Source: Candidatus Saccharicenans sp.
Lineage (GTDB): Bacteria > Acidobacteriota > Aminicenantia > Aminicenantales > Saccharicenantaceae
Assembly (NCBI GenBank): GCA_026414545.1
Contig: JAOAIU010000024.1
Location: forward strand, 3,695-67,694
Length of the DNA stretch: 64,000 bases
Direction: 5' to 3'
Shown here: positions 10,271-44,190 of the stretch, in pieces
Numbering within the stretch: position 1 is the first letter of the stretch
Layout of the letters: each line of letters begins with the position of its first letter
Position numbers and translations under genes: made by a program
The notes under the pieces: model-generated
The model's input: only the letters and a program-made list of their open reading frames with translations
Databases searched by the model: none
What the model was told of the DNA's origin: nothing

Positions 10271-13120
10271 ATGGCCATGAGAAGAGGTTTCTTTTATCCC
10301 TTTCTGCTGCTGGTGCTCGTACTGATTGTTCTGGGTTTCATAAACATCTCCCGCAAGCTGGCCTGGAAAGAACCATACGATGGCGTTTCCTGGGTGGATG
10401 GTCCCACCGGATTGATTGCCGCCCGTGTGGATGAAGACAGCCCGGCCTATCTTTCCGGGATAAAGCCGGGAGACATCCTCTTCTCCATAAATGACACCCC
10501 GATAAAAAATAGAATAGAGTTCGCCAAAATGCTCTGGCTTATTGACCGCCTCGAGCAGAAAGCGTTATACCAGGTGGGTCGGAGCGGCACCATCCTTTCT
10601 CCGTCTTTCTATCTCACCAAGAAGGGAGTGAGTTCCACCTATATTTACCTGATGCTCCTGGGACTGGCCACCCTGGCCATCAGCCTTATGGTCTTCTTCA
10701 ACACCAAGAGATTATTCACCGGGCCTTATGCCTTTTTTTACCTGGTTTCCTTTTCGCTATATTCCTTTTATGTTTTTTCGGCCACGGGCCAGATGGATTT
10801 CCTGGATAGCCTTTTTTACTGGCTGGACAAGTTGGCCCTTCTGGCCTTTCCCCCGCTCCTGCTTAATTTCTTCTTCATCTTTCCCCAGAAGAAAAGAATA
10901 ATCCACAAGAAGAAACGGGTTGCCCTGTTCTACATTCCGGGCCTGGCCCTCCTGGTAACCAATATCCTGCTGGCCCTTGTCCTGGAATCCAGGTTGAGCG
11001 AAGCCCAGGTCCTGGCTTTTCAGAAAATTCTGGAAAAGCTGGAACTGGCCCATTTTGCCCTTTACAGCCTGCTGGCCCTCCTCCTGATCATCCGCGACCT
11101 CATCAGCAATATCAATCCGTACATAAAGAACCAGCTCAAATGGATTGCCGTTGGCCTGGGCCTTGGTTCTTTACCTTTTGCCGCCTTTTATGTTGTTCCC
11201 TTTCTCCAGGATCGCTTGCCCACCACTCCCGGCCAGTTGAGCGTGCTGCTTCAGAGCTTGATTCCGATAACCCTGGCTTATTCCATCTCCCGGTACCGGC
11301 TGATGGATTTTGAAGTGTTGTTTAAGAAGGGAACCACCTTGGTGATTTCCTTTGCCATGCTGGCCATGGTCTATTTTCTGGTCAGCTCCCAGACCGAACT
11401 CTTTTCCGAAAACCGGTTAAATGCCATCCTTCTGGGGCTGCTGGCCATAATTCTGGGGGCCACCCTGTTCACCCCGCTGTCTGAGCTGGTTCAAACGCTG
11501 GTTGACCGGGTAATCTACAAGCGCAGCTACGAGTACCGCCGGACTCTGCTAATGATTTCAAACGTCCTCAACCGGGAACGCGACCTCAGCCGCCTGAGCA
11601 ACTTCCTGGTAGATACCATTTCAAAGGCTTTGTCCCTCAAGCACTGTGACCTTTTTCTGGCCAGGGAAAATAACCCGACTGAATTTTACCTGCTCCGGTC
11701 TTCTGAACCCGACCTGCCGATCAATTCTCTCTCAATTTCTCTCCCCGAAATGGAACTGTTACAAAAGGCCGAATTTGTCTCGCTCGTCCAGCCGGGAGAA
11801 AATCCACCCGGTTCTGGCCTGTTTGTGCCCCTGCTGGAAAAGGGGCGGGTCCATATCCTGCCGCTGCGCCTGGAAAACAAGGTCATGGGCTTCCTGGCCA
11901 TGAGCCACAAGCTGGACGAGTCCTATCTCTCTGGCGAGGACCGGGAGCTGCTGCGCACCATCTCCACCTCGGTGGCCCTGGCCCTGGAAAACGCTTACCT
12001 GTATAACCAGGAAATAATCCGGTCGCAGGAACTGCAGCGTCTGAAGGATTACAGCGATAACATCATCGAAAGTTTGACGGTCGGGGTGGCGGTCATCGAC
12101 CAGACCGGTCGAGTAATCGGTTGGAACCGGGTGCTGGAAAGGCAATTTGGACTGGCCCGGGACCAGGCTCTTAACCGTCATTTATCTGAGGTCATCGGAA
12201 AATATAATTTCCAGGCCATCTTTCCGCCCGAGACCCAGACCGAGTACCAGCTCCTGAGCGAAATCGGATTGACCACGGCCCGGGGCGAAAAGAAAATCTT
12301 CGACGTGGCCCGTACTCCCCTGTTTGACAACCAGATGAAAGCCTACGGTACCATCATCGTTTTTGAAGACATCACCGAAAAAATCCACCTGCAGCAGCAG
12401 TTGCTGACTTCAGAAAAGCTGGCTTCCATCGGACTGCTGTCAGCCGGAGTGGCCCACGAAATCAACACCCCGCTGACCGGCATTTCCAGCTACGTCCAGA
12501 TGTTGCAGAAGAAGCTGACCGACACTCACTATCTTCAGATCTTGCAGAAGATCGAAGCCCAGACTGAGAGGGTTAACCGCATCATCAAGAACCTGCTGAA
12601 CTTTGCCCGCAACCCGGCCGACGAGTATTATCACCGAGTGGACCTCAAGGAAAGCCTGGAAGAAATCATCTCGCTCATAGATTACCGGCTGAAAAGCCTG
12701 AACATCCAGCTGGAGCTGAACCTGAACCCGGTGGTGATTTACGCCCAGCGGGAAAGGCTGCAGCAGGTCTTCATAAACATCATTCTCAACGCCATGGACG
12801 CCATGCCCGAAGGCGGCAAACTGACCATCGAATGCCAGCAGAAAGAAAAGCTGGCCATGGTCAAGATCACCGACACCGGAACCGGCATCAGGCCGGAACA
12901 CCTGCCGAGAATCTTTGATCCCTTTTTTACCACCAAGGGCCTGGGCAAAGGAACCGGGCTGGGTCTATCCATCAGCTTTGCCATAGTCAAGGAACACGAT
13001 GGGCAAATACTGGTGGACAGTGCCGTCGGCCGGGGCACCACTTTTACCATCATCCTGCCCACCGCCCTGTCAGAAAAGAACCGCCCGAAAATACAACCAC
13101 GGGGAAGTCACCATGAATGA
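10271..13120 (+). CDS. Sensor histidine kinase: TM - periplasmic PDZ - polytopic membrane domain - GAF - PAS - HisKA - HATPase_c
   Basis: 949 aa. PDZ-like SPAYLSGIKPGDILFSINDTPI follows TM1, then about 10 hydrophobic helices. The H-box is GVAHEINTPL and the N/G boxes are NAMDAM, DTGTGI and GTGLGLS. The stop overlaps the start of the downstream response regulator (ATGAATGA). Confidence 0.85.
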   Translation: MAMRRGFFYPFLLLVLVLIVLGFINISRKLAWKEPYDGVSWVDGPTGLIAARVDEDSPAYLSGIKPGDILFSINDTPIKNRIEFAKMLWLIDRLEQKALYQVGRSGTILSPSFYLTKKGVSSTYIYLMLLGLATLAISLMVFFNTKRLFTGPYAFFYLVSFSLYSFYVFSATGQMDFLDSLFYWLDKLALLAFPPLLLNFFFIFPQKKRIIHKKKRVALFYIPGLALLVTNILLALVLESRLSEAQVLAFQKILEKLELAHFALYSLLALLLIIRDLISNINPYIKNQLKWIAVGLGLGSLPFAAFYVVPFLQDRLPTTPGQLSVLLQSLIPITLAYSISRYRLMDFEVLFKKGTTLVISFAMLAMVYFLVSSQTELFSENRLNAILLGLLAIILGATLFTPLSELVQTLVDRVIYKRSYEYRRTLLMISNVLNRERDLSRLSNFLVDTISKALSLKHCDLFLARENNPTEFYLLRSSEPDLPINSLSISLPEMELLQKAEFVSLVQPGENPPGSGLFVPLLEKGRVHILPLRLENKVMGFLAMSHKLDESYLSGEDRELLRTISTSVALALENAYLYNQEIIRSQELQRLKDYSDNIIESLTVGVAVIDQTGRVIGWNRVLERQFGLARDQALNRHLSEVIGKYNFQAIFPPETQTEYQLLSEIGLTTARGEKKIFDVARTPLFDNQMKAYGTIIVFEDITEKIHLQQQLLTSEKLASIGLLSAGVAHEINTPLTGISSYVQMLQKKLTDTHYLQILQKIEAQTERVNRIIKNLLNFARNPADEYYHRVDLKESLEEIISLIDYRLKSLNIQLELNLNPVVIYAQRERLQQVFINIILNAMDAMPEGGKLTIECQQKEKLAMVKITDTGTGIRPEHLPRIFDPFFTTKGLGKGTGLGLSISFAIVKEHDGQILVDSAVGRGTTFTIILPTALSEKNRPKIQPRGSHHE

Positions 13121-14492
13121 TAATGTCTTGATCCACCTGATCGATGATGAACCCATCATCCATGATGTTCTGGGGCAACTCCTGGAATCAGAGGGCTTCC
13201 AGGTTGAGATTTCTGCCTCAGGGGAGGAAGCTCTAAAAAAATTCGAGGAGCAAAAATTCGACCTGATTCTGCTCGACCTGCTAATGCCCGGCCTGGACGG
13301 TCTGGAAGTCTTGAAACAGATCAGGAAAATTGACCCGGAAGCTCTGGTGATCATCATCACCGCTTACGCCTCGGTGGAATCGGCCCTGACCGCCATCAAG
13401 ATGGGAGCCTATGATTACATTCAGAAGCCCTTCAAGAACGACGAATTACTGATGACCATCAGGCGGGCCCTGGAACACCGCCGGCTGCAGGAGGAAAACA
13501 TCAGGCTGCGCCACGAACTGAAAAAGAAGTTCAGCTTCGAGAACATCATCGGCAAGAGCCAGGCTATGATGAATGTCTTCGAACTGATCAAAGCCGCCGC
13601 CCCCACTCGCTCCACCATCCTGATTCAGGGAGAAAGCGGCACCGGCAAGGAACTGGTGGCCCGGGCCATTCACCTGAACTCCGACCGGGCCCGCCATCCC
13701 TTCGTGGTGGTCAACAGCGGCTCGTTGCCCCCGGACCTGCTGGAAAGCCACCTCTTCGGCCATGTCAAAGGTGCTTTTACCGGCGCGGTCACCGACAAGA
13801 AAGGTCTGTTCGAGGCGGCCGACCGGGGCACCATCTTCTTCGACGAAATCTCTTCTATCAGCCTGGAAACCCAGGTCAAATTGCTCCGGGTCATGCAGGA
13901 CAAAGAATTCATGCGACTGGGCGGAACCAGAACCATCAAGGTCGACGTCCGCATCATCGCCGCCACCAATACCGACCTGGAGGAACTGATCGAGCAGAAG
14001 GCTTTCCGCAAGGACCTGTTCTACCGTCTGAACGTCATTAAAATCGAACTGCCACCGCTCCGGGCCAGGAAAGAAGACATCCCGCTGCTGGTCAAGCATT
14101 TCATCGATCTTTATAACGCCGAGAACCAGAAACAGGTGGAGGGGGTCAGCGAGGACGTCATGGAAATCCTGATGGATTACGACTGGCCCGGTAATGTCCG
14201 GGAACTGGAAAACGTACTGGAAAGGGCCGTGGTGCTCTGCAAGTCCAGGGTCATCACCCGCGATGCCCTGCCGCCCTTCCTGCTGAGCGGGAAAAAAATC
14301 ATGTTCGAAGAGCTGGACAATGCCAGCCTGGACCTTAAAGAAAAGACGGTTGAATTCCAGAAAAAATTGATCCTGACCGCCCTGGAAAAAGCCGGTGGCG
14401 TTCAGAAAAAGGCGGCCCAGCTTCTGGGATTGAAGCCAACGACGCTCAACGAAATGATCAAACGCCTGAAAATAAACACCAGGCTTATATAG
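13113..14492 (+). CDS. Sigma54-dependent response regulator (NtrC/AtoC family bacterial enhancer-binding protein)
   Basis: REC domain (DLILLDLLMPGLDG), AAA+ sigma54-interaction domain with Walker A GESGTGKE and the GAFTGA loop (VKGAFTGAV), and a C-terminal Fis-type HTH (AAQLLGLKPTTLNEMIKRL). I take the start at ATG 13113; the track's longer 12999 start overlaps the kinase. Confidence 0.9.
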   Translation: MNDNVLIHLIDDEPIIHDVLGQLLESEGFQVEISASGEEALKKFEEQKFDLILLDLLMPGLDGLEVLKQIRKIDPEALVIIITAYASVESALTAIKMGAYDYIQKPFKNDELLMTIRRALEHRRLQEENIRLRHELKKKFSFENIIGKSQAMMNVFELIKAAAPTRSTILIQGESGTGKELVARAIHLNSDRARHPFVVVNSGSLPPDLLESHLFGHVKGAFTGAVTDKKGLFEAADRGTIFFDEISSISLETQVKLLRVMQDKEFMRLGGTRTIKVDVRIIAATNTDLEELIEQKAFRKDLFYRLNVIKIELPPLRARKEDIPLLVKHFIDLYNAENQKQVEGVSEDVMEILMDYDWPGNVRELENVLERAVVLCKSRVITRDALPPFLLSGKKIMFEELDNASLDLKEKTVEFQKKLILTALEKAGGVQKKAAQLLGLKPTTLNEMIKRLKINTRLI

Positions 14493-38403: not shown

Positions 38404-39082
38404 CGTACGGCCAGAAAGGAAAAAACTTAACTTATCCGTTGAGGTCAGAGGGTGGAGTTTCTTCCCGGCAGGCTCGGGTCAGGCGCGTTTCTGCAGGGCC
38501 GGATGTGAAAAAAAATTCGTTAAGCCGCTAAGACTGATAGCTTGGCCTTGCCTCTCTCATCAAGGGCGGTTTAACTTTTCTGGCTATAGCGTTCCGGGCT
38601 ATTCCGGATAAAATTGATTCAGCTTTTTCTGACCGCCTCTGTCGCCTTCCGGCAGCCTGCCCAAAAAAGCCTATCCCTGTTCAATTGTCACCAAAACCAC
38701 GAGCTCGCAGTCATTAAGAGAAGGTTTTGACCACTGGCATTAAATTCACGATTGTGTTCGGCAGGTAAAATCCTGTTGTCATTCCCGGCGACGGCAGTTA
38801 ACGACTTTTGACTTCACGGGCCACAAGACGTGAAAAACCGTGCTTCTTTCCAATCAGGAGTAAAGGTGACCGGCTGGCTTCATTATCTTCAGACCTCGAC
38901 AAAACAATCGGTCTCGAAACAATCCTCTCTTACCGATAGACATAATACAAGAATCCCGCCCAAAACCTAGAAGGGTTCAAGGCTCATAACCCGAAGCACA
39001 CTACTTTCTTCAGTGAGAAAATCCTATTATATTATGCGTCTTTGATAGAGACGCTAACAATGCCGGGTCAGGTCAAAATGGC

Positions 39083-39097
39083 TGGCACGCCACTTGC
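39083..39097 (+). promoter_or_regulatory. Sigma54 (RpoN) -24/-12 promoter TGGCAC-N5-TTGC
   Basis: TGGCAC at 39083-39088, GCCAC at 39089-39093, TTGC at 39094-39097, so the GG/GC spacing is exactly canonical. RBS AAAGGAGG (39112-39119) and the ATG at 39125 follow immediately. Confidence 0.75.
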
Positions 39098-39124
39098 TCT
39101 TTAAGCAGGCGAAAGGAGGTTAAA

Positions 39125-39349
39125 ATGAAAAAGGCATTAGCCGTTACCATGACCACAATTATTCTTTTCTCCACACTTTTGCTTATTCCCCTGGCCAGCC
39201 AGGAAGTGAACCCGGCCGATTCCTGCTGGAATAACTGGGAGAGATGCCGGGCCCGGGCCCTGCAGTCCGACTTCGGTACGATAAGAACCACCCTGGCCCT
39301 GACCCTGTGCGACATCGCCCTGGGCAAGTGTTTGCTGAACGCCGTCTGA
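39125..39349 (+). CDS. Secreted twin-CX6C mini-protein, paralog 1 (74 aa precursor)
   Basis: Strong RBS and signal peptide MKKALAVTMTTIILFSTLLLIPLAS. The mature part is about 48 aa with Cys34/41/62/69. It is colinear with the next ORF, with all four Cys at identical positions and shared ERCxARAL and LxLCD blocks. Confidence 0.6.
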   Translation: MKKALAVTMTTIILFSTLLLIPLASQEVNPADSCWNNWERCRARALQSDFGTIRTTLALTLCDIALGKCLLNAV

Positions 39350-39366
39350 TTAAACAAGGAGGACCC

Positions 39367-39600
39367 GTGAAAAGAAAACTGGCTCTGGCACTTGCCATTC
39401 TGATCGGCCTCTCTATCTTCCTCAGCTCACCTTCTAACTCCCGGGCAACCGAAAAACAAGATATCTGCCTTTTAATCTTTGAGAGATGCGTGGCCCGGGC
39501 TCTGCTGGCCGACACCAGTACTCTTTCCACCTGTAATGCTCTCCAGCTCTGCGACAACCAAAGGCTCGCCTGCTATATTCTGATGATGATAATGATCTGA
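39367..39600 (+). CDS. Secreted twin-CX6C mini-protein, paralog 2 (77 aa precursor, GTG start)
   Basis: RBS AAGGAGG lies 5 nt before the GTG at 39367. The signal peptide is (M)KRKLALALAILIGLSIFLSSPSNS. It has Cys34/41/62/69 plus an extra Cys56 and a hydrophobic tail YILMMIMI. The track shows it only inside the longer 39244..39600 frame. Confidence 0.55.
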   Translation: MKRKLALALAILIGLSIFLSSPSNSRATEKQDICLLIFERCVARALLADTSTLSTCNALQLCDNQRLACYILMMIMI

Positions 39601-39614
39601 ACAGGCGAAAAAAA

Positions 39615-39648
39615 GGGGCTCCGGCCAACAGGGTCAGAGCCCCTTTTT
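39615..39648 (+). terminator. Intra-operon rho-independent terminator/attenuator after the two peptide genes
   Basis: Stem GGGGCTC (39615-39621) / GAGCCCC (39637-39643) with a 15-nt loop, flanked by an A-run upstream and TTTTT (39644-39648) downstream. Confidence 0.6.
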
Positions 39649-39673
39649 GCAAACTTAGAGAAGGAGGATTAAG

Positions 39674-40681
39674 ATGACTAAGACAAAAGGACAAACCGGG
39701 CTCCTGGACAGATTAATTCGGTTGCTCCTTCTGACTTTTTTAATAATCACTCCACATTCTGCACAGGGGCAGCAGCTAAAGATCCGGACAGCCAAAGAGA
39801 TTCCGCTCGCCGGAGCCAAGGATCGGCCTTTCTTCTTCAAGCCGGTAACCATGCAATTCTCTCCAGCTGGACTCCTGATTTCAGAATCCGGAGAAAACTG
39901 CCTGAAGCTGGTCGGAACCGATGGCCGACTGAAATTGACTATCGGCAAGCAGGGGCCAGGACCTGAGGAATTCGATTCCCCGATGGGCCTGGACCTTTTC
40001 GAAAACAGGATCTATGTGGCCGATTCTTTCAATCGCCAGGTCAAAATCTTCAATCTGGAGGGCAAGCTCCTGGGCAGTTTCAGAACCGACATAATACCTG
40101 TTCACCTGGTGGTGCTGGCCGCGGACAGGATCATCGTTTCCAACCGCCCCAACCCGTTGACTGGCCAAGAATCCATTCTTTATTGTTATGATTCCCGGGG
40201 AACGAAGAAATGGCAAGCGGTTAACCCTGTTCCTTCACCCGATTCTGTTTATTTCAGCTTGATCAACGAAGTCTTCCTGAAAAAAGACCCAAACGGAAAC
40301 GTGTTCCTGATTCACAGATACAACGACCCTCAGATCCTGAAAATTGATGCCGAGGGAAAGATAACCGGGAAAATTAAGCTGGATGAGTCCTATCCCCTTA
40401 ACCGTGTCGAGATCCCTCTCAAAAACGGAAAGAAACAAATCATCATAATCTGCTGGAATGTGGCCCATCACGGGGATAAGTTTTACCTCCAGGTACCGGA
40501 TAAAGATAGACGGGGCGACTTTGTCCCGGGAAAAGAAGTCTTCGTTATCGATAGCAATGGCCAGGTCGTCGAAAAAATAAGGTTTCCCCAGTCCGTTCGT
40601 CTCCTGGCCACCGACGGCTCAACCTTCTACATTATTAACACGGAAGATGAACTCTATGCCTACGGGGTGGACCAGGAATGA
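39674..40681 (+). CDS. Exported NHL-repeat six-bladed beta-propeller protein
   Basis: Signal-like N-terminus (LLDRLIRLLLLTFLIITPHSAQG). NHL-type repeat units are present, e.g. GKQGPGPEEFDSPMGLDLFENRIYVADSFNRQVKIFNLEGKLLGSF. RBS AAGGAGG. Confidence 0.7.
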   Translation: MTKTKGQTGLLDRLIRLLLLTFLIITPHSAQGQQLKIRTAKEIPLAGAKDRPFFFKPVTMQFSPAGLLISESGENCLKLVGTDGRLKLTIGKQGPGPEEFDSPMGLDLFENRIYVADSFNRQVKIFNLEGKLLGSFRTDIIPVHLVVLAADRIIVSNRPNPLTGQESILYCYDSRGTKKWQAVNPVPSPDSVYFSLINEVFLKKDPNGNVFLIHRYNDPQILKIDAEGKITGKIKLDESYPLNRVEIPLKNGKKQIIIICWNVAHHGDKFYLQVPDKDRRGDFVPGKEVFVIDSNGQVVEKIRFPQSVRLLATDGSTFYIINTEDELYAYGVDQE

Positions 40682-41181
40682 AGAAAACGGCTCTTATTTT
40701 CCCGGCTCTTGTTCTTATGCTCATTACTTTTGGGCCTGAAGTCCTTCTGCCTGCAGTCGGCCTCCAGACCCAAGGGCCCGCTATCTGCTCCTCGCTCGAA
40801 GAAATCGCCGGCTACCGGGAACAGCCCCTGATCCTGGTGTTCATCTCCCTGGCCTGCCACGTCTGCTGGGAAGAGCTCTTTGAGATGAAAGATTTCGTAG
40901 AAAAGATGGCTCTGCCCATCAATCTCGTCGGAGTTTCGACCGAGAGCCGGGAGCAGCTGGAAAATTTCGTCCGCCGCTATTCCTTCAGCTATCCGATAAT
41001 CGAAGACAGGAACAAGACCTTATTCAGGCGATTCCGGGTCAGGCTCGAACCGTTTGTCGTTATCCTAGATTCAAAGGGCGAAGTCTTTCACCTGGATGAC
41101 CCCATCCTCGATTTCGAGGCAAGGCGAGACCTGAACAAGAAGAAAATCCTGGAGCTGGTCGAGAAAAAAGACTGGCCTTAA
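40678..41181 (+). CDS. Exported TlpA/ResA-like thioredoxin-fold thiol:disulfide oxidoreductase (CHVC active site)
   Basis: Signal peptide MKKTALIFPALVLMLITFG. PLILVFISLACHVCWEEL is a Trx-fold CxxC motif in the usual beta1-alpha1 position, and FSYPIIED...FRV...PFVVILD fits the redoxin family. ATGA overlap with the NHL gene implies translational coupling. Confidence 0.7.
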   Translation: MKKTALIFPALVLMLITFGPEVLLPAVGLQTQGPAICSSLEEIAGYREQPLILVFISLACHVCWEELFEMKDFVEKMALPINLVGVSTESREQLENFVRRYSFSYPIIEDRNKTLFRRFRVRLEPFVVILDSKGEVFHLDDPILDFEARRDLNKKKILELVEKKDWP

Positions 41182-41400: not shown

Positions 41401-42390
41401 ATGGGCAAATTTGACCTGAAAGTCCTCCTTCCCTACTACCAGGAGGTGGCCGTCCTGAAATATGGCGGGACCCTGGACTTCGACCGTCTGGAAAGATCCA
41501 TGGAACCGGTCAGGCTGGGGCAGGAAGAATTTTCCTACCAGCACCTGGAGATGCTGAAGCGGGACAACCTTTTCCCGGCCTGGTGGAAATTGCCGGAGTT
41601 AACCAGGCCAGAACTCGAAGCCCTGAAAGATGTTTTCCGGAACCCTCAGCCCGGGGACCAGAACCTGGTTCAGAAGCTGTTCGATATCTTTAAGAATATA
41701 GAAATCCTGTCCTGTCTGCTGCGGGTCATCTGCCCTCAGCATTACGGGATTTACAGCGCCCCGGTGGAGAACCTGCTATCGATCAAGGCCGAGACTCCGG
41801 TCAAAAAATACCTGGTTTACCTGGAAAATCTGGCCGAACTCCAGGAAGAATATGGCCTGGAGCGGATAGCCGATGTGGACATGGCTCTGTTTGCCCTTTG
41901 CTGCCTTCTGGCCGAAGGTTATATCCGGCAGAACCCTGACTATCGCCAGATCTATCTTGACTACCTGGAACAACCCAACCTGATCAAGAGAATCTCAGCC
42001 CGCAACGCCCTCAGAAACATCCGGCAGGAAAATATTTACTACCTGGACCTGGCTGAGTCCTTCCTGGAAACTGACCCGGAAATCGCCGGCATTCTGGCTG
42101 GCAAGGAACTGGAATGCCTGGTCAACGACTTATGGGAAAATGAAAAAAAACGGGCAGGTTACAAACCCTATAAAACTTCGAACATGCCGGAGAAACTCGA
42201 GGAGCTGGCCTTCAGGAAGGTAATCGGCGACCAGGAAAAAGAAGACCTGCAAGAATGGTGGAATATCAGGAATGATTGTGTCCACCTCAACCTGTCAGAG
42301 GCCAGCGAGCCAGAGCTAAAGGTATTACGGGACCGGGTCAGCGAAATGATCCTTGGCCTGGCCGACCTTAAGGCAAGAATTAAGACCTGA
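41401..42390 (+). CDS. Hypothetical protein with C-terminal HEPN-like Rx4H motif
   Basis: 329 aa, no signal peptide. WWNIRNDCVHLN (R290-H295, nt 42268-42285) lies in a predicted helical C-terminal region about 35 aa from the end, as in many HEPN/Abi RNase domains. I did not recognise the N-terminal two-thirds. Confidence 0.4.
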   Translation: MGKFDLKVLLPYYQEVAVLKYGGTLDFDRLERSMEPVRLGQEEFSYQHLEMLKRDNLFPAWWKLPELTRPELEALKDVFRNPQPGDQNLVQKLFDIFKNIEILSCLLRVICPQHYGIYSAPVENLLSIKAETPVKKYLVYLENLAELQEEYGLERIADVDMALFALCCLLAEGYIRQNPDYRQIYLDYLEQPNLIKRISARNALRNIRQENIYYLDLAESFLETDPEIAGILAGKELECLVNDLWENEKKRAGYKPYKTSNMPEKLEELAFRKVIGDQEKEDLQEWWNIRNDCVHLNLSEASEPELKVLRDRVSEMILGLADLKARIKT

Positions 42391-42720: not shown

Positions 42721-44190
42721 ATGAAGACTCTAAAGAGGCGTGATTTTCTGAAAATTTCGGCCGGCAGCGGCGCGGCCGCGGTCGTGGCCCCGGCCCTGGC
42801 CAAATCCAGTCCTAAACCGGGCCAGAGTCGGCAGTGGACTTCTCCCCTGGCCAAAGGCCTGGTCAGTCCGGGCGGCCGAACCAGGGTCAAGGTGGCTAAA
42901 ATTTATATGGGTCTGCCCGAACCCCACTGGCCAAAGCCCTCGCTCAATCTGCAGGAAGAAATCAAAGCCTATGAAAATCAGTTCAGCCTGATGAAGGATG
43001 AATTCTCTGATGTCGATTTTGTGGTCAACATCCTGGCCAGCAAACCCGAGGATGTGCTGCAGCAGGCCGATAGGCTAAAGGAAACTGACGGCATCCTGGC
43101 CATCCACCTGACCATCTGGATAACTCCCATCCTGGAAACCATCCTGAAATTTAAGAAGCCCACAGTTCTTTTTGCCGCCCCTTATTCCGGGCACGAATGG
43201 ACCTACTTCGGCGCTCTGATGAAACAGGAAAAGGGTGAATTGCTGGACTGCTTCCTCAGCAGCGACCGGCGGGAGCTGGCCAGGGCAGTTCGTCCCTTCC
43301 GGGCTATTCATCATCTCCGGGAAGCCAGGATCCTGAACCTGACCACTGCACCCTTTGAAGACTATGCCGGGAAGGTCAGAGAAAAATTCGGCACAGAAAT
43401 AAAGAGAATTTCCCTGGACCGGGTGGAAAAGATCTTCGCGGCCATTGGTGAGACTGAGGCCCGCCGCGAGGCTGACCTCTGGTACAGGGGTGCAGAAAGA
43501 GTGGTCGAACCATCGCCGGAAGAAGTCTATAAATCGGCCCGCCTGGCCCTGGCCTTTGAAAAGCTGGTGGAAGAAGAACAGGCCACCGCTCTGACCATCG
43601 ACTGTTACGGCACCATGTGGGATAAGACCATAAAACTGCCGGCCTATCCCTGCCTGGGTTTTAGCCGGCTCAACAACCGCGGCCTCGGGGGGATCTGCGA
43701 ATCCGACCTGCGCTCGGCCATAACCCATATCATCCTTCAAGGATTATCCGGAAAACCAGGCTTTATCAGCGACCCGACGGTTGACGAAGCCAGAGATTAT
43801 ATACTCCTGGCCCACTGCATGGGCACGGTCAACATGGACGGCCCGGGAAAGCCTGGCCACCCGTACAAGCTCAGAACCGTCATGGAGCGGCAGGAAGGCG
43901 TGGTTCCTCAGGTGGAAATGCGCCTCGGGGAAAAGGTGACCCAGGCCATCATCGTGGGCACCGAGCAAATTCTTTATTTCACCGGTGAAATCGTGGACAC
44001 ACCGGTCAGACTCGAGGATGACCGTGGCTGCCGCACCAAGATTGCGGTGAGGGTTGACGGCAGCCTGGAAAAACTCTGGCAGAACTGGTCTCATGGCCTG
44101 CACCGGGTAACCTGTTACGGAAATCTGGCCAGAGAACTGCGGATGCTGTCCCGGTTCAAGAAACTGGAACTTGTAAACGAGGCGATATAA
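42721..44190 (+). CDS. Tat-signal protein; body tentatively resembles the FucI/AraA sugar-isomerase-like superfamily
   Basis: MKTLKRRDFLKISAGSGAAAVVAPALA is a clear twin-arginine signal. The C-terminal ...SHGLHRVTCYGNLARELRMLSRFKKLELV resembles the HH..x..GD...L..LA..LGI end of fucose/arabinose-isomerase-like proteins. The function call is weak. Confidence 0.4.
   Translation: MKTLKRRDFLKISAGSGAAAVVAPALAKSSPKPGQSRQWTSPLAKGLVSPGGRTRVKVAKIYMGLPEPHWPKPSLNLQEEIKAYENQFSLMKDEFSDVDFVVNILASKPEDVLQQADRLKETDGILAIHLTIWITPILETILKFKKPTVLFAAPYSGHEWTYFGALMKQEKGELLDCFLSSDRRELARAVRPFRAIHHLREARILNLTTAPFEDYAGKVREKFGTEIKRISLDRVEKIFAAIGETEARREADLWYRGAERVVEPSPEEVYKSARLALAFEKLVEEEQATALTIDCYGTMWDKTIKLPAYPCLGFSRLNNRGLGGICESDLRSAITHIILQGLSGKPGFISDPTVDEARDYILLAHCMGTVNMDGPGKPGHPYKLRTVMERQEGVVPQVEMRLGEKVTQAIIVGTEQILYFTGEIVDTPVRLEDDRGCRTKIAVRVDGSLEKLWQNWSHGLHRVTCYGNLARELRMLSRFKKLELVNEAI

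What the first reader, a model, noticed from the sequence alone, without database searches (positions are those of the whole stretch)
39083..41181. Sigma54-driven operon: two twin-CX6C secreted mini-proteins + NHL beta-propeller + TlpA-like thioredoxin (candidate undescribed extracytoplasmic peptide system)
A canonical RpoN promoter sits 28 nt before a tight operon of four exported products.
- Two paralogous precursors of about 75 aa, each with a signal peptide and four position-identical cysteines.
- A hairpin/T-run attenuator.
- An NHL six-bladed propeller.
- A translationally coupled (ATGA overlap) periplasmic CxxC (CHVC) thioredoxin-fold protein.

This arrangement suggests disulfide-stapled peptides made in excess over a dedicated redox partner and a propeller partner that could bind or process them. 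No radical-SAM, LanM/LanC, ABC-exporter or protease gene is present, so it does not fit a known RiPP or bacteriocin class.

The nearest analogy I know is the Bacteroidales pairing of small signal-peptide NVEALA proteins with six-bladed beta-propeller lipoproteins, whose function is also unknown. That analogy is inference only. The whole block follows a 0.7-kb ORF-free gap and is flanked by unrelated housekeeping and peptidase genes, which is consistent with an accessory locus.
Basis: partly seen in the sequence, partly recalled or inferred. Interest (0 to 1): 0.85.

Follow-up and report, generated by a model that had tools for sequence, protein, structure and literature searches.

The report
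Sigma-54 cystine-hairpin peptide cassette, Aminicenantes
A real, tightly regulated operon in an uncultured sediment bacterium over-produces small exported helical-hairpin peptides with four invariant cysteines, next to a dedicated propeller and thioredoxin pair; the same undescribed cassette, usually with its own ABC transporter, recurs in over 100 related metagenome loci.

Summary
The window is from an Aminicenantes / Ca. Saccharicenans-like genome.

- **What is there:** a sigma-54 promoter, two paralogous 74- and 77-aa peptides with Sec signals and a twin CX6C motif, a GC-rich hairpin with a T-run, a six-bladed NHL propeller (Pfam DUF5128), and a translationally coupled TlpA-like CXXC protein.
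- **It is conserved:** the peptide family has no Pfam or NCBIfam model. It appears in 104 further metagenome loci, always in the order peptide, propeller, thioredoxin.
- **An ABC transporter belongs to the ancestral unit:** 31 of 34 sufficiently long loci continue with a 245-aa permease that has no Pfam match and an ABC-2-type ATPase. The window's clade lost this transporter and duplicated the peptide.
- **Regulatory signals are conserved too:** the -24/-12 promoter sits 41-42 nt before the start codon, and the post-peptide hairpin is present family-wide.
- **Predicted peptide structure:** AlphaFold gives a helical hairpin (pLDDT 94). The cysteine geometry fits two nested disulfides, as in glycocins, but there is no sequence homology, glycosyltransferase or C39 transporter.
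- **Propeller and thioredoxin:** together they resemble a split NHLRC2/SOQ1 module.

Best reading (confidence about 0.4): an inducible, exported, cystine-stapled, membrane-active hairpin peptide, folded by the propeller/thioredoxin pair and ancestrally coupled to an ABC-2 transporter for self-protection. The biological role is unproven. Undescribed in the searched literature; moderately high interest.

The parts
38404..39082 (+). ORF-free upstream region holding the presumed regulatory DNA, including an inverted repeat GCGTCT-N7-AGACGC at 39036-39054 and conserved TTGTCA / GTTAAC-N4-6-TTGAC blocks
   Evidence: No ORF called here and no Rfam family. Conserved blocks appear in the alignment of 10 orthologous upstream regions. 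Their function as enhancer or IHF sites is inferred, not tested.
39083..39098 (+). Sigma-54 (-24/-12) promoter TGGCACgccacTTGCT; transcription start expected near 39108-39110
   Evidence: Only match in the window. The -24/-12 elements are invariant in 10 of 10 orthologous loci at a fixed distance from the ribosome-binding site. The strict motif occurs in 65 of 96 family loci, 41-42 nt before the start codon.
39125..39349 (+). Peptide 1 precursor, 74 aa: Sec signal peptide plus a mature domain of about 48 aa with twin CX6C
   Evidence: 17 orthologue clusters and 37 representative hits to the profile. Invariant residues are C34, C41, L59, C62 and C69. pN/pS is 0.25. AlphaFold predicts a helical hairpin with pLDDT 93.8. 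Signal-peptide features are present in 94 of 94 family members.
39367..39600 (+). Peptide 2 precursor, 77 aa, GTG start: a paralogue with the same four cysteines, Tyr after the last Cys and a hydrophobic tail (YILMMIMI)
   Evidence: 36% identical to peptide 1. Present only in the Saccharicenans clade loci. Scores 72.9 bits against the family HMM. Its fifth Cys is not conserved.
39615..39648 (+). GC-rich stem-loop followed by TTTTT: a partial terminator or an mRNA 3'-end stabiliser between the peptide genes and the machinery genes
   Evidence: Folds at -31 kcal/mol, z = -3.9. A hairpin is present in all 12 orthologous loci with different stem sequences. Family-wide, the median stem is 13 bp and 79% GC, and 97% of loci fold at -20 kcal/mol or lower.
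39674..40681 (+). Exported six-bladed NHL beta-propeller (DUF5128), 335 aa; presumed peptide-binding partner of the thioredoxin
   Evidence: PF17170 27.7 bits. AlphaFold pLDDT 88.8. Foldseek matches Brat/TRIM NHL domains at TM 0.6-0.74. The profile hits NHLRC2 at 1.7e-14 and SOQ1. Present in 70 of 70 loci with enough downstream DNA.
40678..41181 (+). Exported TlpA/ResA-like thioredoxin-fold protein, 167 aa, CHVC active site; its ATG overlaps the propeller stop codon (ATGA)
   Evidence: AhpC-TSA 4.9e-14. Weak matches to ResA and StoA. Closest solved structures are YkuV and StoA. CXXC is invariant in 62 orthologues. Present in 56 of 56 loci.

Best explanation
This is the transporter-less, two-peptide derivative of a conserved Aminicenantes cassette: peptide, NHL propeller, TlpA-like thioredoxin, then an ABC-2 permease and ATPase.

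Proposed mechanism:
1. An enhancer-binding protein switches on a sigma-54 promoter, so expression is all-or-none.
2. A short-leader mRNA encodes the peptide(s). A strong hairpin directly after the last peptide gene terminates or stabilises most transcripts, so peptide is made in large excess over the propeller and thioredoxin, which are translationally coupled to each other.
3. The peptides are exported by Sec and their signal peptides are cleaved 4-9 residues before Cys1.
4. The mature 45-50-aa peptide folds as an antiparallel helix-loop-helix pinned by two nested disulfides (Cys1-Cys4 and Cys2-Cys3).
5. The propeller and the CXXC protein act as one split oxidoreductase, like the fused Trx-like/NHL module of NHLRC2 and SOQ1. 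The propeller cup binds the hairpin and the CXXC site performs thiol-disulfide exchange on it.
6. The folded peptide has one Trp/Arg-rich helix and one strongly hydrophobic helix. It is the end product and acts at a membrane or the envelope, as an antimicrobial or a signal.
7. Ancestrally, the ABC-2 transporter protects the producer or removes the peptide from its own membrane.

Shown: the gene architecture, its conservation, the export signals, the invariance of the cysteines and of CXXC, the promoter and hairpin, and the predicted folds. Inferred: the disulfide pattern, the propeller-thioredoxin-peptide contacts, the direction of the redox step, the membrane activity, and the role of the transporter.
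For: - **Cassette order** is invariant: propeller in 70/70 loci, thioredoxin in 56/56, permease in 41/45, ABC ATPase in 31/34. It also holds in different genomic contexts (L014, L087, L208).
- **Promoter** is conserved, and an NtrC-type enhancer-binding protein is present in the window.
- **Hairpin** after the peptide gene is conserved, with stem sequences that differ between loci.
- **Signal peptides** of Sec type are present in 94/94 peptides.
- **Cysteines** are invariant across all 38 diverse members.
- **Predicted fold:** AlphaFold gives helices 4-21 and 26-47 at pLDDT 93.8. Cys8+Cys43 and Cys15+Cys36 both sum to 51, the register expected for two nested inter-helix disulfides.
- **Structural neighbours** include cystine-stapled hairpins (Luffin P1, VBP-1, neurotoxin B-IV), although the E-values are not significant.
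- **Glycocin clusters** likewise pair a nested-disulfide hairpin peptide with dedicated thioredoxin-like genes and an ABC transporter (PMC6405829, PMC12457901).
- **CXXC and the cis-Pro position** are invariant in the thioredoxin. The propeller's conserved residues are structural NHL positions with no catalytic set.
- **Trx-like/NHL precedent:** in NHLRC2 a TlpA-family Trx-like domain is fused to an NHL propeller, and the two form a ligand-binding cleft (PMC6107167). The propeller profile hits NHLRC2 at 1.7e-14.
- **ATPase type:** it is closest to the DrrA, GldA and lantibiotic-protection ABC families.
Against: - No experiment bears on any step, and no complex model could be run.
- The locus is vertically inherited and syntenic within one phylum-level lineage. 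The mature peptide is as conserved as the ATPase (52.5% against 53.7% mean identity) and more conserved than the propeller (37.7%). That pattern is atypical for bacteriocin loci and fits a physiological role better.
- A Sec-exported peptide in a diderm cell ends up in the periplasm, and no outer-membrane exit route is encoded.
- TlpA-family proteins usually act as reductants, so the cysteines may be kept reduced rather than oxidised.
- The window's clade dispenses with the ABC transporter altogether, which is awkward if the transporter provides immunity.
- The cassette contains no electron donor or acceptor such as CcdA, DsbD, DsbB or VKOR.
Confidence: 0.4

Rival explanations
1. Periplasmic thiol, metal or cofactor handling. 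The twin-CX6C peptide is an abundant periplasmic carrier whose cysteine pairs must stay reduced to bind a metal or sulfur species. The TlpA-like protein, positioned by the propeller, is its reductant, as TlpA is for ScoI and CoxB. The ABC-2 transporter exports the ligand or a reductant, in the manner of NosFY, CcmAB or CydDC.
For: - The thioredoxin's closest relatives are reductants (ResA, StoA, YkuV).
- One permease cluster carries an automated JGI label as a NosY-like 'multi-copper enzyme maturation permease'.
- The locus is vertically inherited and syntenic next to housekeeping genes, and the peptide is well conserved. Both fit a physiological function.
- TlpA reduces ScoI and CoxB before metallation (reference 40 cited in PMC6107167).
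Against: - The two cysteine pairs lie about two helical turns apart and cannot form one four-Cys site.
- No conserved His or Met accompanies the cysteines.
- No metalloenzyme or chaperone gene is linked.
- The NosY label is an unverified automatic annotation. The permease matches no Pfam or NCBIfam model and no PDB sequence.
- The clade containing the window has lost the transporter.
Confidence: 0.22
2. Envelope-stress module. The peptide is a sigma-54-induced periplasmic helical protein that shields exposed hydrophobic surfaces or the membrane, analogous in logic to sigma-54-dependent ZraP or PspA. The propeller/thioredoxin pair and the ABC-2 transporter are accessory repair factors.
For: - Control by sigma-54.
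- A small helical-hairpin product with a large hydrophobic face (and the sequence itself).
- Over-expression of the peptide relative to its partners.
- A PDZ-containing sensor kinase and an NtrC-type enhancer-binding protein in the same window.
- That ZraP and Psp are sigma-54-dependent is from my own knowledge.
Against: - No sequence or profile similarity to Spy, CpxP, ZraP or PspA families.
- The invariant four-cysteine design and the dedicated oxidoreductase are not features of those systems.
- The kinase and enhancer-binding protein lie 25 kb away and are not linked to the cassette in other loci.
Confidence: 0.15
3. Small subunit of a propeller holo-protein. The peptide is a cysteine-rich small subunit, possibly bearing a cofactor, that assembles with the propeller. 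This would parallel methylamine dehydrogenase (small MauA, propeller MauB, TlpA-like MauD, membrane MauE) or quinohemoprotein amine dehydrogenase.
For: - The gene set is parallel: a small Cys-rich exported protein, a beta-propeller, a TlpA-like protein and a membrane protein. The Mau and Qhp composition is from my own knowledge.
- Peptide 1 carries Trp at C+1 and C+4.
- The peptide is highly conserved.
Against: - The hairpin implies peptide in large excess over propeller rather than 1:1.
- The propeller is a six-bladed NHL type with no conserved catalytic residues, not a seven-bladed dehydrogenase subunit.
- The Trp residues are not conserved across the family (Y, F, H or L also occur).
- No MauG, radical-SAM or flavoprotein maturase gene is present.
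Confidence: 0.1
4. True RiPP. The propeller is an enzyme that further modifies the peptide, for example through crosslinks or chemistry at the peptide termini, and the thioredoxin assists.
For: The precursor-then-hairpin-then-machinery layout is typical of RiPP operons. Some six-bladed propellers are enzymes; virginiamycin B lyase appears at rank 26.
Against: The peptide uses a Sec signal rather than a leader peptide, so any modification would have to occur in the periplasm without ATP. The propeller has no conserved His, Glu or Asp catalytic constellation. Its best structural matches are ligand-binding NHL domains.
Confidence: 0.08

Closest known systems
Glycocins (sublancin 168, glycocin F, pallidocin) and their gene clusters
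   Same: The peptide is a helix-loop-helix with C-x6-C on each helix, giving two nested disulfides. The clusters carry dedicated thioredoxin-like genes and an ABC transporter (PMC6405829, PMC12457901). The sublancin and glycocin F sequences and their CX6C spacing are from my own knowledge.
   Different: - No glycosyltransferase gene in or near any locus.
- A Sec signal instead of a double-glycine leader.
- An ABC-2 transporter with a separate permease and ATPase, instead of a C39-peptidase ABC exporter.
- An obligatory NHL propeller, which glycocin clusters lack.
- 20 residues between the inner cysteines, against 8-14 in glycocins.
- No detectable homology (hhalign probability below 1%).
- The host is a diderm of an uncultured phylum rather than a member of the Firmicutes.
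Trx-like/NHL module of NHLRC2 (human) and SOQ1 (plant thylakoid lumen)
   Same: A TlpA-family thioredoxin fold is combined with a six-bladed NHL propeller, and the propeller cup faces the Cys motif to form a ligand cleft (PMC6107167). SOQ1 acts in an extracytoplasmic compartment (10.1101/2021.03.16.435614). The window's propeller profile hits both proteins.
   Different: Here the two domains are separate, translationally coupled genes in the reverse order (propeller first). The motif is a classical CXXC (CHVC, or CPSC in other loci) rather than CC(I/V)NC. A candidate substrate is co-encoded, which is not the case for NHLRC2, where no conserved operon was found (PMC6107167).
Bacteroidales DUF5128 six-bladed propeller with NVEALA small proteins
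   Same: The propeller scores above the Pfam gathering threshold for PF17170. It is paired with a small protein that carries a signal peptide.
   Different: None of 38 peptides matches NVEALA or any other Pfam family. The propeller has a Sec-type signal and no lipobox. The thioredoxin and ABC-2 partners are not known for that pairing. No literature could be found on either family.
Lantibiotic LanFEG and PSM Pmt-type ABC-2 transporters
   Same: In the ancestral cassette, the ATPase's top NCBIfam hits include the DrrA, GldA and lantibiotic-protection families, with weaker similarity to PmtA. A roughly 245-aa permease with about six transmembrane segments is encoded beside the peptide gene.
   Different: All scores fall far below the family cut-offs. 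The permease matches no known family. The transporter is absent from the window.
Plant alpha-hairpinins and CHCH (twin CX9C / CX3C) proteins
   Same: A cystine-stapled antiparallel helical hairpin with two nested disulfides. Luffin P1 and VBP-1 are among the top structural neighbours.
   Different: The spacing is CX6C rather than CX3C or CX9C. The structural matches are not significant. Origin and biogenesis are unrelated.

Membership tests
Sigma-54-dependent promoter | GG at -24 and GC at -12 with the canonical TGGCAC-N5-TTGCW spacing | tested here: met
   Exact match at 39083-39098.
Sigma-54-dependent promoter | Conservation of the -24/-12 elements in orthologues while the flanking DNA diverges | tested here: met
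   10 of 10 aligned loci. 65 of 96 family loci match strictly at 41-42 nt from the start codon, and most others are near-matches.
Sigma-54-dependent promoter | The genome encodes an enhancer-binding protein | tested here: met
   A REC / Sigma54_activat / HTH_8 protein at 12999-14492, E = 1.7e-70. Its link to this promoter is untested.
Sigma-54-dependent promoter | Transcript start about 12 nt after the GC, dependent on RpoN | not testable with these tools
   Needs 5'-RACE or RNA-seq.
Glycocin | Helix-loop-helix with (C-x6-C)2 and two nested disulfides | tested here: inconclusive
   The motif and the helical hairpin are met. Disulfide connectivity is inferred from the register only.
Glycocin | S- or O-glycosyltransferase (SunS/GccA type) in the cluster | tested here: not met
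   No such gene in the window operon, and none among the recurrent flanking gene families of the family loci; only some of those flank families were checked against Pfam.
Glycocin | Double-glycine leader and a C39-peptidase ABC exporter | tested here: not met
   Sec signal peptides in 94/94 members. The ABC transporter is ABC-2 type with a separate 245-aa permease.
Glycocin | Sequence homology to known glycocins | tested here: not met
   hhalign probability 0.2-0.3%. No Pfam or NCBIfam hit.
DUF5128 / NVEALA pair (Bacteroidales) | Propeller belongs to PF17170 | tested here: met
   27.7 bits against a 22.9 cut-off. Relatives score 43-44 bits.
DUF5128 / NVEALA pair (Bacteroidales) | Small partner belongs to the NVEALA family | tested here: not met
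   0 of 38 peptides hit it at E <= 1.
TlpA/ResA-like extracytoplasmic thiol-disulfide oxidoreductase | Thioredoxin fold with a CXXC motif and a conserved cis-Pro, plus an export signal | tested here: met
   AhpC-TSA, Redoxin and Thioredoxin_8 hits. CXXC and Pro are invariant in 62 orthologues. A hydrophobic N-terminal signal is visible in the sequence.
TlpA/ResA-like extracytoplasmic thiol-disulfide oxidoreductase | Equivalence to a named member (ResA, StoA, CcmG) | tested here: not met
   Scores of 30-35 bits against cut-offs of 120-210. No cytochrome c maturation genes are linked.
NHLRC2/SOQ1 Trx-like-NHL module | TlpA-family Trx domain plus a six-bladed NHL propeller acting together | tested here: inconclusive
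   Both parts are present, adjacent and translationally coupled in every locus. The propeller profile hits NHLRC2 at 1.7e-14. Physical interaction was not tested.
NHLRC2/SOQ1 Trx-like-NHL module | A single polypeptide with a CC(I/V)NC motif | tested here: not met
   Separate genes. The motif is CHVC here, and CPSC, CHVC or CPVC elsewhere.
Quinoprotein amine dehydrogenase (MADH/QHNDH) type | Seven-bladed propeller subunit, conserved Trp/Cys cofactor residues, and a MauG or radical-SAM maturase | tested here: not met
   The propeller is a six-bladed NHL type. Trp is not conserved. No maturase genes are present.

The most novel reading that the evidence does not exclude
The cassette is the first case in which a Trx-like/NHL-propeller module is encoded together with its natural client. 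The propeller cup captures a twin-CX6C helical hairpin and the CXXC partner writes or erases its two disulfides. The peptide would be a new class of Sec-dependent, cystine-stapled effector of diderm bacteria, a 'glycocin without sugar', possibly sensed through its hydrophobic C-terminus. If so, it offers a tractable bacterial model for the unknown function of NHLRC2 and SOQ1-type proteins, and it defines a new peptide family, a new ABC-2 permease family and a new operon type.
Probability: 0.3. Interest if true: 0.8.

Novelty: new variant of a known kind. Interest (0 to 1): 0.62.

Why it matters
- **A hidden, widespread gene set.** It is strictly ordered and seems confined to Aminicenantes, an abundant but uncultured sediment and bioreactor lineage. 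Its peptide and its permease have no model in Pfam or NCBIfam and no paper in the searched library.
- **A convergent design.** The (CX6C)2 nested-disulfide hairpin is known from Gram-positive glycocins. Here it has arisen, or survived, in a Sec-dependent and sugar-free form in a diderm organism.
- **A candidate substrate for an orphan module.** The cassette pairs a TlpA-like protein and an NHL propeller with an obvious candidate substrate. This makes the long-unresolved function of Trx-like/NHL proteins directly testable; these include NHLRC2, which is mutated in FINCA disease, and plant SOQ1.
- **Possible applications.** If the peptide is membrane-active, it is a new stable scaffold for antimicrobial or peptide engineering.

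Tried and rejected
- **Rfam** scan of the whole window found nothing, so the 0.7-kb gap holds no known riboswitch or sRNA.
- **The consensus terminator scan** missed the hairpin because its loop limit is 8 nt. Folding found it.
I replaced it with a hand-built degenerate DNA pattern. The first version was miscounted and failed on the window. The corrected version worked.
- **Literature searches** for NVEALA, DUF5128 and Aminicenantes plus bacteriocin found nothing relevant. One search was wasted on a loose term setting.
- **PADLOC** gave no defence-system match beyond generic ATPase similarity.
- **The permease profile against PDB sequences** gave no hit even at E <= 10. The permease profile search returned only cassette-type 245-aa proteins, so it gave no bridge to a known family.
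- **Cluster-member look-up** for taxonomy gave only one organism label, Aminicenantales.
- **My first T-run count** was flawed because it used the wrong 3' end of the stem. I redid it.
- **Cytochrome c maturation, Nos, MADH/QHNDH and glycocin membership** were each considered and rejected on features that were tested and not met.
- **The antisense 124-aa ORF** at 39183-39557 was rejected as spurious, because the sense-strand peptides are under purifying selection.

Full report
**1.

The region reads exactly as described, with small corrections.

- **Promoter.** TGGCACgccacTTGCT lies at 39083-39098. It is the only sigma-54 consensus match in the window even with one mismatch allowed. A single match is not itself significant, because shuffles give a mean of 2.05.
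- **Peptide 1.** A ribosome-binding site (AAAGGAGG, 39112-39119) precedes the gene at 39125-39349 (74 aa).
- **Peptide 2.** It starts at GTG 39367 behind its own ribosome-binding site and ends at 39600 (77 aa). The longer mechanical ORF from 39244 is not the real gene.
- **Hairpin.** The stem at 39615-39643 is followed by TTTTT. It folds at -31 kcal/mol, z = -3.9.
- **Propeller.** The 335-aa gene at 39674-40681 scores above the Pfam threshold for PF17170/DUF5128.
- **Thioredoxin-fold protein.** The 167-aa gene at 40678-41181 (AhpC-TSA 4.9e-14, CHVC motif) overlaps the propeller stop codon by ATGA.
- **Nothing else known.** Rfam finds nothing in the window.

**2. The genes are real and the unit is conserved**

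- The propeller has 18 full-length orthologue clusters at 42-87% identity. Those that carry a source name are labelled Aminicenantes, Saccharicenans or Acidobacteria, apart from one 'Clostridiales' MAG.
- Fifteen orthologous loci all carry peptide 1 upstream. Its mature part is far better conserved than its signal peptide.
- Across peptide 1, peptide 2 and distant members, the invariant residues are C34, C41, L59, C62 and C69.
- pN/pS is 0.25 for mature peptide 1.
- A profile of the mature domain, searched against 1.84 billion representative proteins, found 37 hits. About 35 are proteins of 68-129 aa with a signal peptide and the domain at the C-terminus.
- Local HMM searches on these and three earlier loci found a true peptide in 104 of 123.
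- Wherever enough downstream DNA exists, the order is the same:

| Component | Loci with it / loci with enough downstream DNA |
|---|---|
| Propeller | 70 / 70 |
| Thioredoxin | 56 / 56 |
| 245-aa membrane protein | 41 / 45 |
| ABC ATPase | 31 / 34 |

- The same five genes occur in a 4.07-Mb contig and in loci with different flanks (L014, L087).
- The membrane protein has about six hydrophobic segments. It matches no Pfam, NCBIfam or PDB sequence.
- The ATPase is closest to the DrrA, GldA and lantibiotic-protection ABC-2 families.
- The window contains neither transporter gene. Its clade has lost them and gained peptide 2. In one basal locus, L012, the ATPase ORF is split in two.
- Peptide duplication arose independently at least twice.

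**3. Regulatory anatomy**

- In ten aligned upstream regions the -24/-12 elements and the ribosome-binding site are invariant, while the spacer and flanks vary.
- Family-wide, the strict motif lies 41-42 nt before the start codon in 65 of 96 unique loci. Most of the others are one-base variants.
- An NtrC-type enhancer-binding protein sits next to a PDZ-GAF-PAS histidine kinase 25 kb upstream in the window. This shows the organism uses sigma-54, but nothing links that pair to this promoter.
- A long GC-rich hairpin (median 13 bp, 79% GC) begins about 7 nt after the last peptide stop codon in nearly every locus. Stem sequences differ between loci.
- A canonical U-run follows the hairpin in only about 21-37% of loci, including the window. 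The hairpin is therefore either a leaky terminator or a stabiliser of the mRNA 3' end. Either reading predicts much more peptide than machinery.
- The propeller and thioredoxin genes overlap in the window and in nearly all the other loci examined, as do the thioredoxin, permease and ATPase genes where those are present. This suggests fixed stoichiometry.

**4. The proteins**

- **Signal peptides.** All 94 unique peptides have two Lys/Arg at the N-terminus, an uncharged stretch of about 18 residues, and a small-residue (-3, -1) site 4-9 residues before Cys1. These are Sec type I signal peptides.
- **Peptide fold.** AlphaFold predicts mature peptide 1 as helix 4-21, a short loop, then helix 26-47, at pLDDT 93.8. 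Cys8+Cys43 and Cys15+Cys36 both sum to 51, the register of two nested inter-helix disulfides. This pairing is inferred; I could not inspect the coordinates.
- **Peptide surface.** Helix 1 is rich in Trp and Arg. Helix 2 is strongly hydrophobic on its outer face. Peptide 2 adds a hydrophobic tail.
- **Peptide neighbours.** Foldseek neighbours include the cystine-stapled hairpins Luffin P1, VBP-1 and neurotoxin B-IV, at non-significant E-values.
- **Propeller.** The model (pLDDT 88.8) matches six-bladed NHL domains such as Brat and TRIM71 at TM 0.6-0.74. Its family-wide conserved residues are structural NHL positions, with no catalytic His/Asp/Glu set. This suggests a binding scaffold rather than an enzyme.
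- **Thioredoxin.** CXXC and a Pro that fits the thioredoxin cis-Pro are invariant in 62 orthologues, while the two inner residues of CXXC vary. Its nearest solved relatives are YkuV and StoA.

**5. Mechanism**

The best-supported chain of events is:

1. Induction gated by sigma-54.
2. Over-production of the peptide relative to the downstream proteins.
3. Sec export and signal-peptide cleavage.
4. Folding into a hairpin pinned by two disulfides.
5. Thiol-disulfide exchange catalysed by the CXXC protein, with the propeller acting as its substrate-binding partner.

The pairing in step 5 rests on two things: strict adjacency and translational coupling, and a fusion precedent. In NHLRC2 and SOQ1 a TlpA-family Trx-like domain is fused to an NHL propeller, and the propeller cup faces the Cys motif to form a ligand cleft (PMC6107167; 10.1101/2021.03.16.435614). 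The window's propeller profile hits both proteins.

The end product's role is the weakest step. Its amphipathic, hydrophobic design, the all-or-none promoter and the ancestral ABC-2 transporter suggest a membrane- or envelope-active peptide with transporter-mediated self-protection.

Three points count against a classical bacteriocin:
- The locus is syntenic and vertically inherited: after hutU in 44 loci, and after an M29 peptidase in Saccharicenans.
- The peptide is as conserved as the ATPase and more conserved than the propeller.
- No outer-membrane export route is encoded.

Two rivals therefore stay alive: a carrier whose thiols are kept reduced for metal or cofactor handling, and an envelope-stress protein. 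The small-subunit model (MADH/QHNDH-like) and the true-RiPP model are less likely (see the rival explanations).

**6. Comparison with known systems**

- **Glycocins** share the (CX6C)2 nested-disulfide hairpin and the dedicated thioredoxin genes (PMC6405829, PMC12457901). However, there is no glycosyltransferase, no double-glycine leader, no C39 exporter and no sequence homology. This is not a glycocin.
- **The NVEALA analogy** holds only for the propeller's Pfam family. None of 38 peptides hits NVEALA.
- **Pathway membership.** No cytochrome c maturation, Nos or Mau genes were found in the cassette or among the flanking genes examined.
- **Defence systems.** PADLOC shows none.
- **Literature.** No paper in the searchable library mentions these families.

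**7. Verdict**

This is a real, conserved and apparently undescribed cassette. Its parts are of known kinds but their combination is new. It contains a new small-protein family and a new permease family.

I rate it a new variant of a known kind, namely loci for cystine-stapled peptides with a dedicated oxidoreductase. Interest is 0.62. Confidence in the anatomy is high. Confidence in the proposed mechanism is moderate (0.4). Confidence in the biological role is low.

Noticed in passing
window 10271-14492 (+): A 949-aa sensor histidine kinase with an N-terminal PDZ domain (PDZ-GAF-PAS-HisKA-HATPase) is followed by an overlapping NtrC-type sigma-54 enhancer-binding protein (REC, Sigma54_activat, HTH_8). 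It is the only enhancer-binding protein in the window (the only GAFTGA motif found), and the cassette promoter is the only sigma-54 consensus site. PDZ domains bind hydrophobic C-termini, which the peptides have. The link is speculative: the pair is 25 kb away and is not syntenic in other loci.
   Followed up: partly
window 38404-39082: A 680-nt ORF-free region upstream of the promoter has blocks conserved among Saccharicenans loci: TTGTCA, direct repeats GTTAAC-N4-6-TTGAC, and an inverted repeat GCGTCT-N7-AGACGC at 39036-39054, about 30-50 nt before the -24 element. These are possible enhancer or IHF sites. No Rfam family matches.
   Followed up: partly
window 41401-42390 (+): A 329-aa cytoplasmic protein with only a weak DUF4145 hit is conserved directly downstream of the thioredoxin gene in the Saccharicenans clade. 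In L001 it is split into two ORFs. In L005 and L010 large insertions follow it that look, from their N-terminal sequences only, like restriction-modification genes. It is probably a separate unit.
   Followed up: no
window 42721-44190 (+): A 489-aa protein has a twin-arginine (TAT) signal and weak similarity to sulfoquinovose and L-arabinose isomerases (NCBIfam 2.7e-11, far below the cut-off). An exported sugar-isomerase-like protein is unusual.
   Followed up: no
window 39367-39600, and pep2 genes of L005 (7692-7925), L007 (216-449) and L010 (7695-7928): The mature part of peptide 2 shows pN/pS 0.69 against 0.25 for peptide 1, while its signal peptide is very conserved (0.13). This could mean relaxed or diversifying selection on the paralogue. 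It rests on only four close sequences.
   Followed up: partly
L098 548-2488 (-): In one of the three loci that lack the ABC transporter, a TonB-dependent receptor gene follows the thioredoxin gene on the same strand, 300 nt downstream. It is the only hint of an outer-membrane component next to the cassette.
   Followed up: no
L012 10138-10877: The cassette's ABC ATPase is split into two ORFs of 116 and 106 aa. This is either a frameshift or an assembly error. It may mark decay of the transporter on the way to the transporter-less form seen in the window.
   Followed up: no
L007, L008: MAGs labelled 'Clostridiales bacterium' and 'Eubacteriales bacterium' carry propellers 80% and 65% identical to the window's Aminicenantes-type gene; L007 also carries the peptide genes, while the 1.6-kb L008 contig holds only the propeller. 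These contigs are probably mis-binned or mislabelled.
   Followed up: no
window 39183-39557 (-): A 124-aa antisense ORF overlaps both peptide genes. It is almost certainly spurious, given the codon-level conservation of the sense strand.
   Followed up: partly
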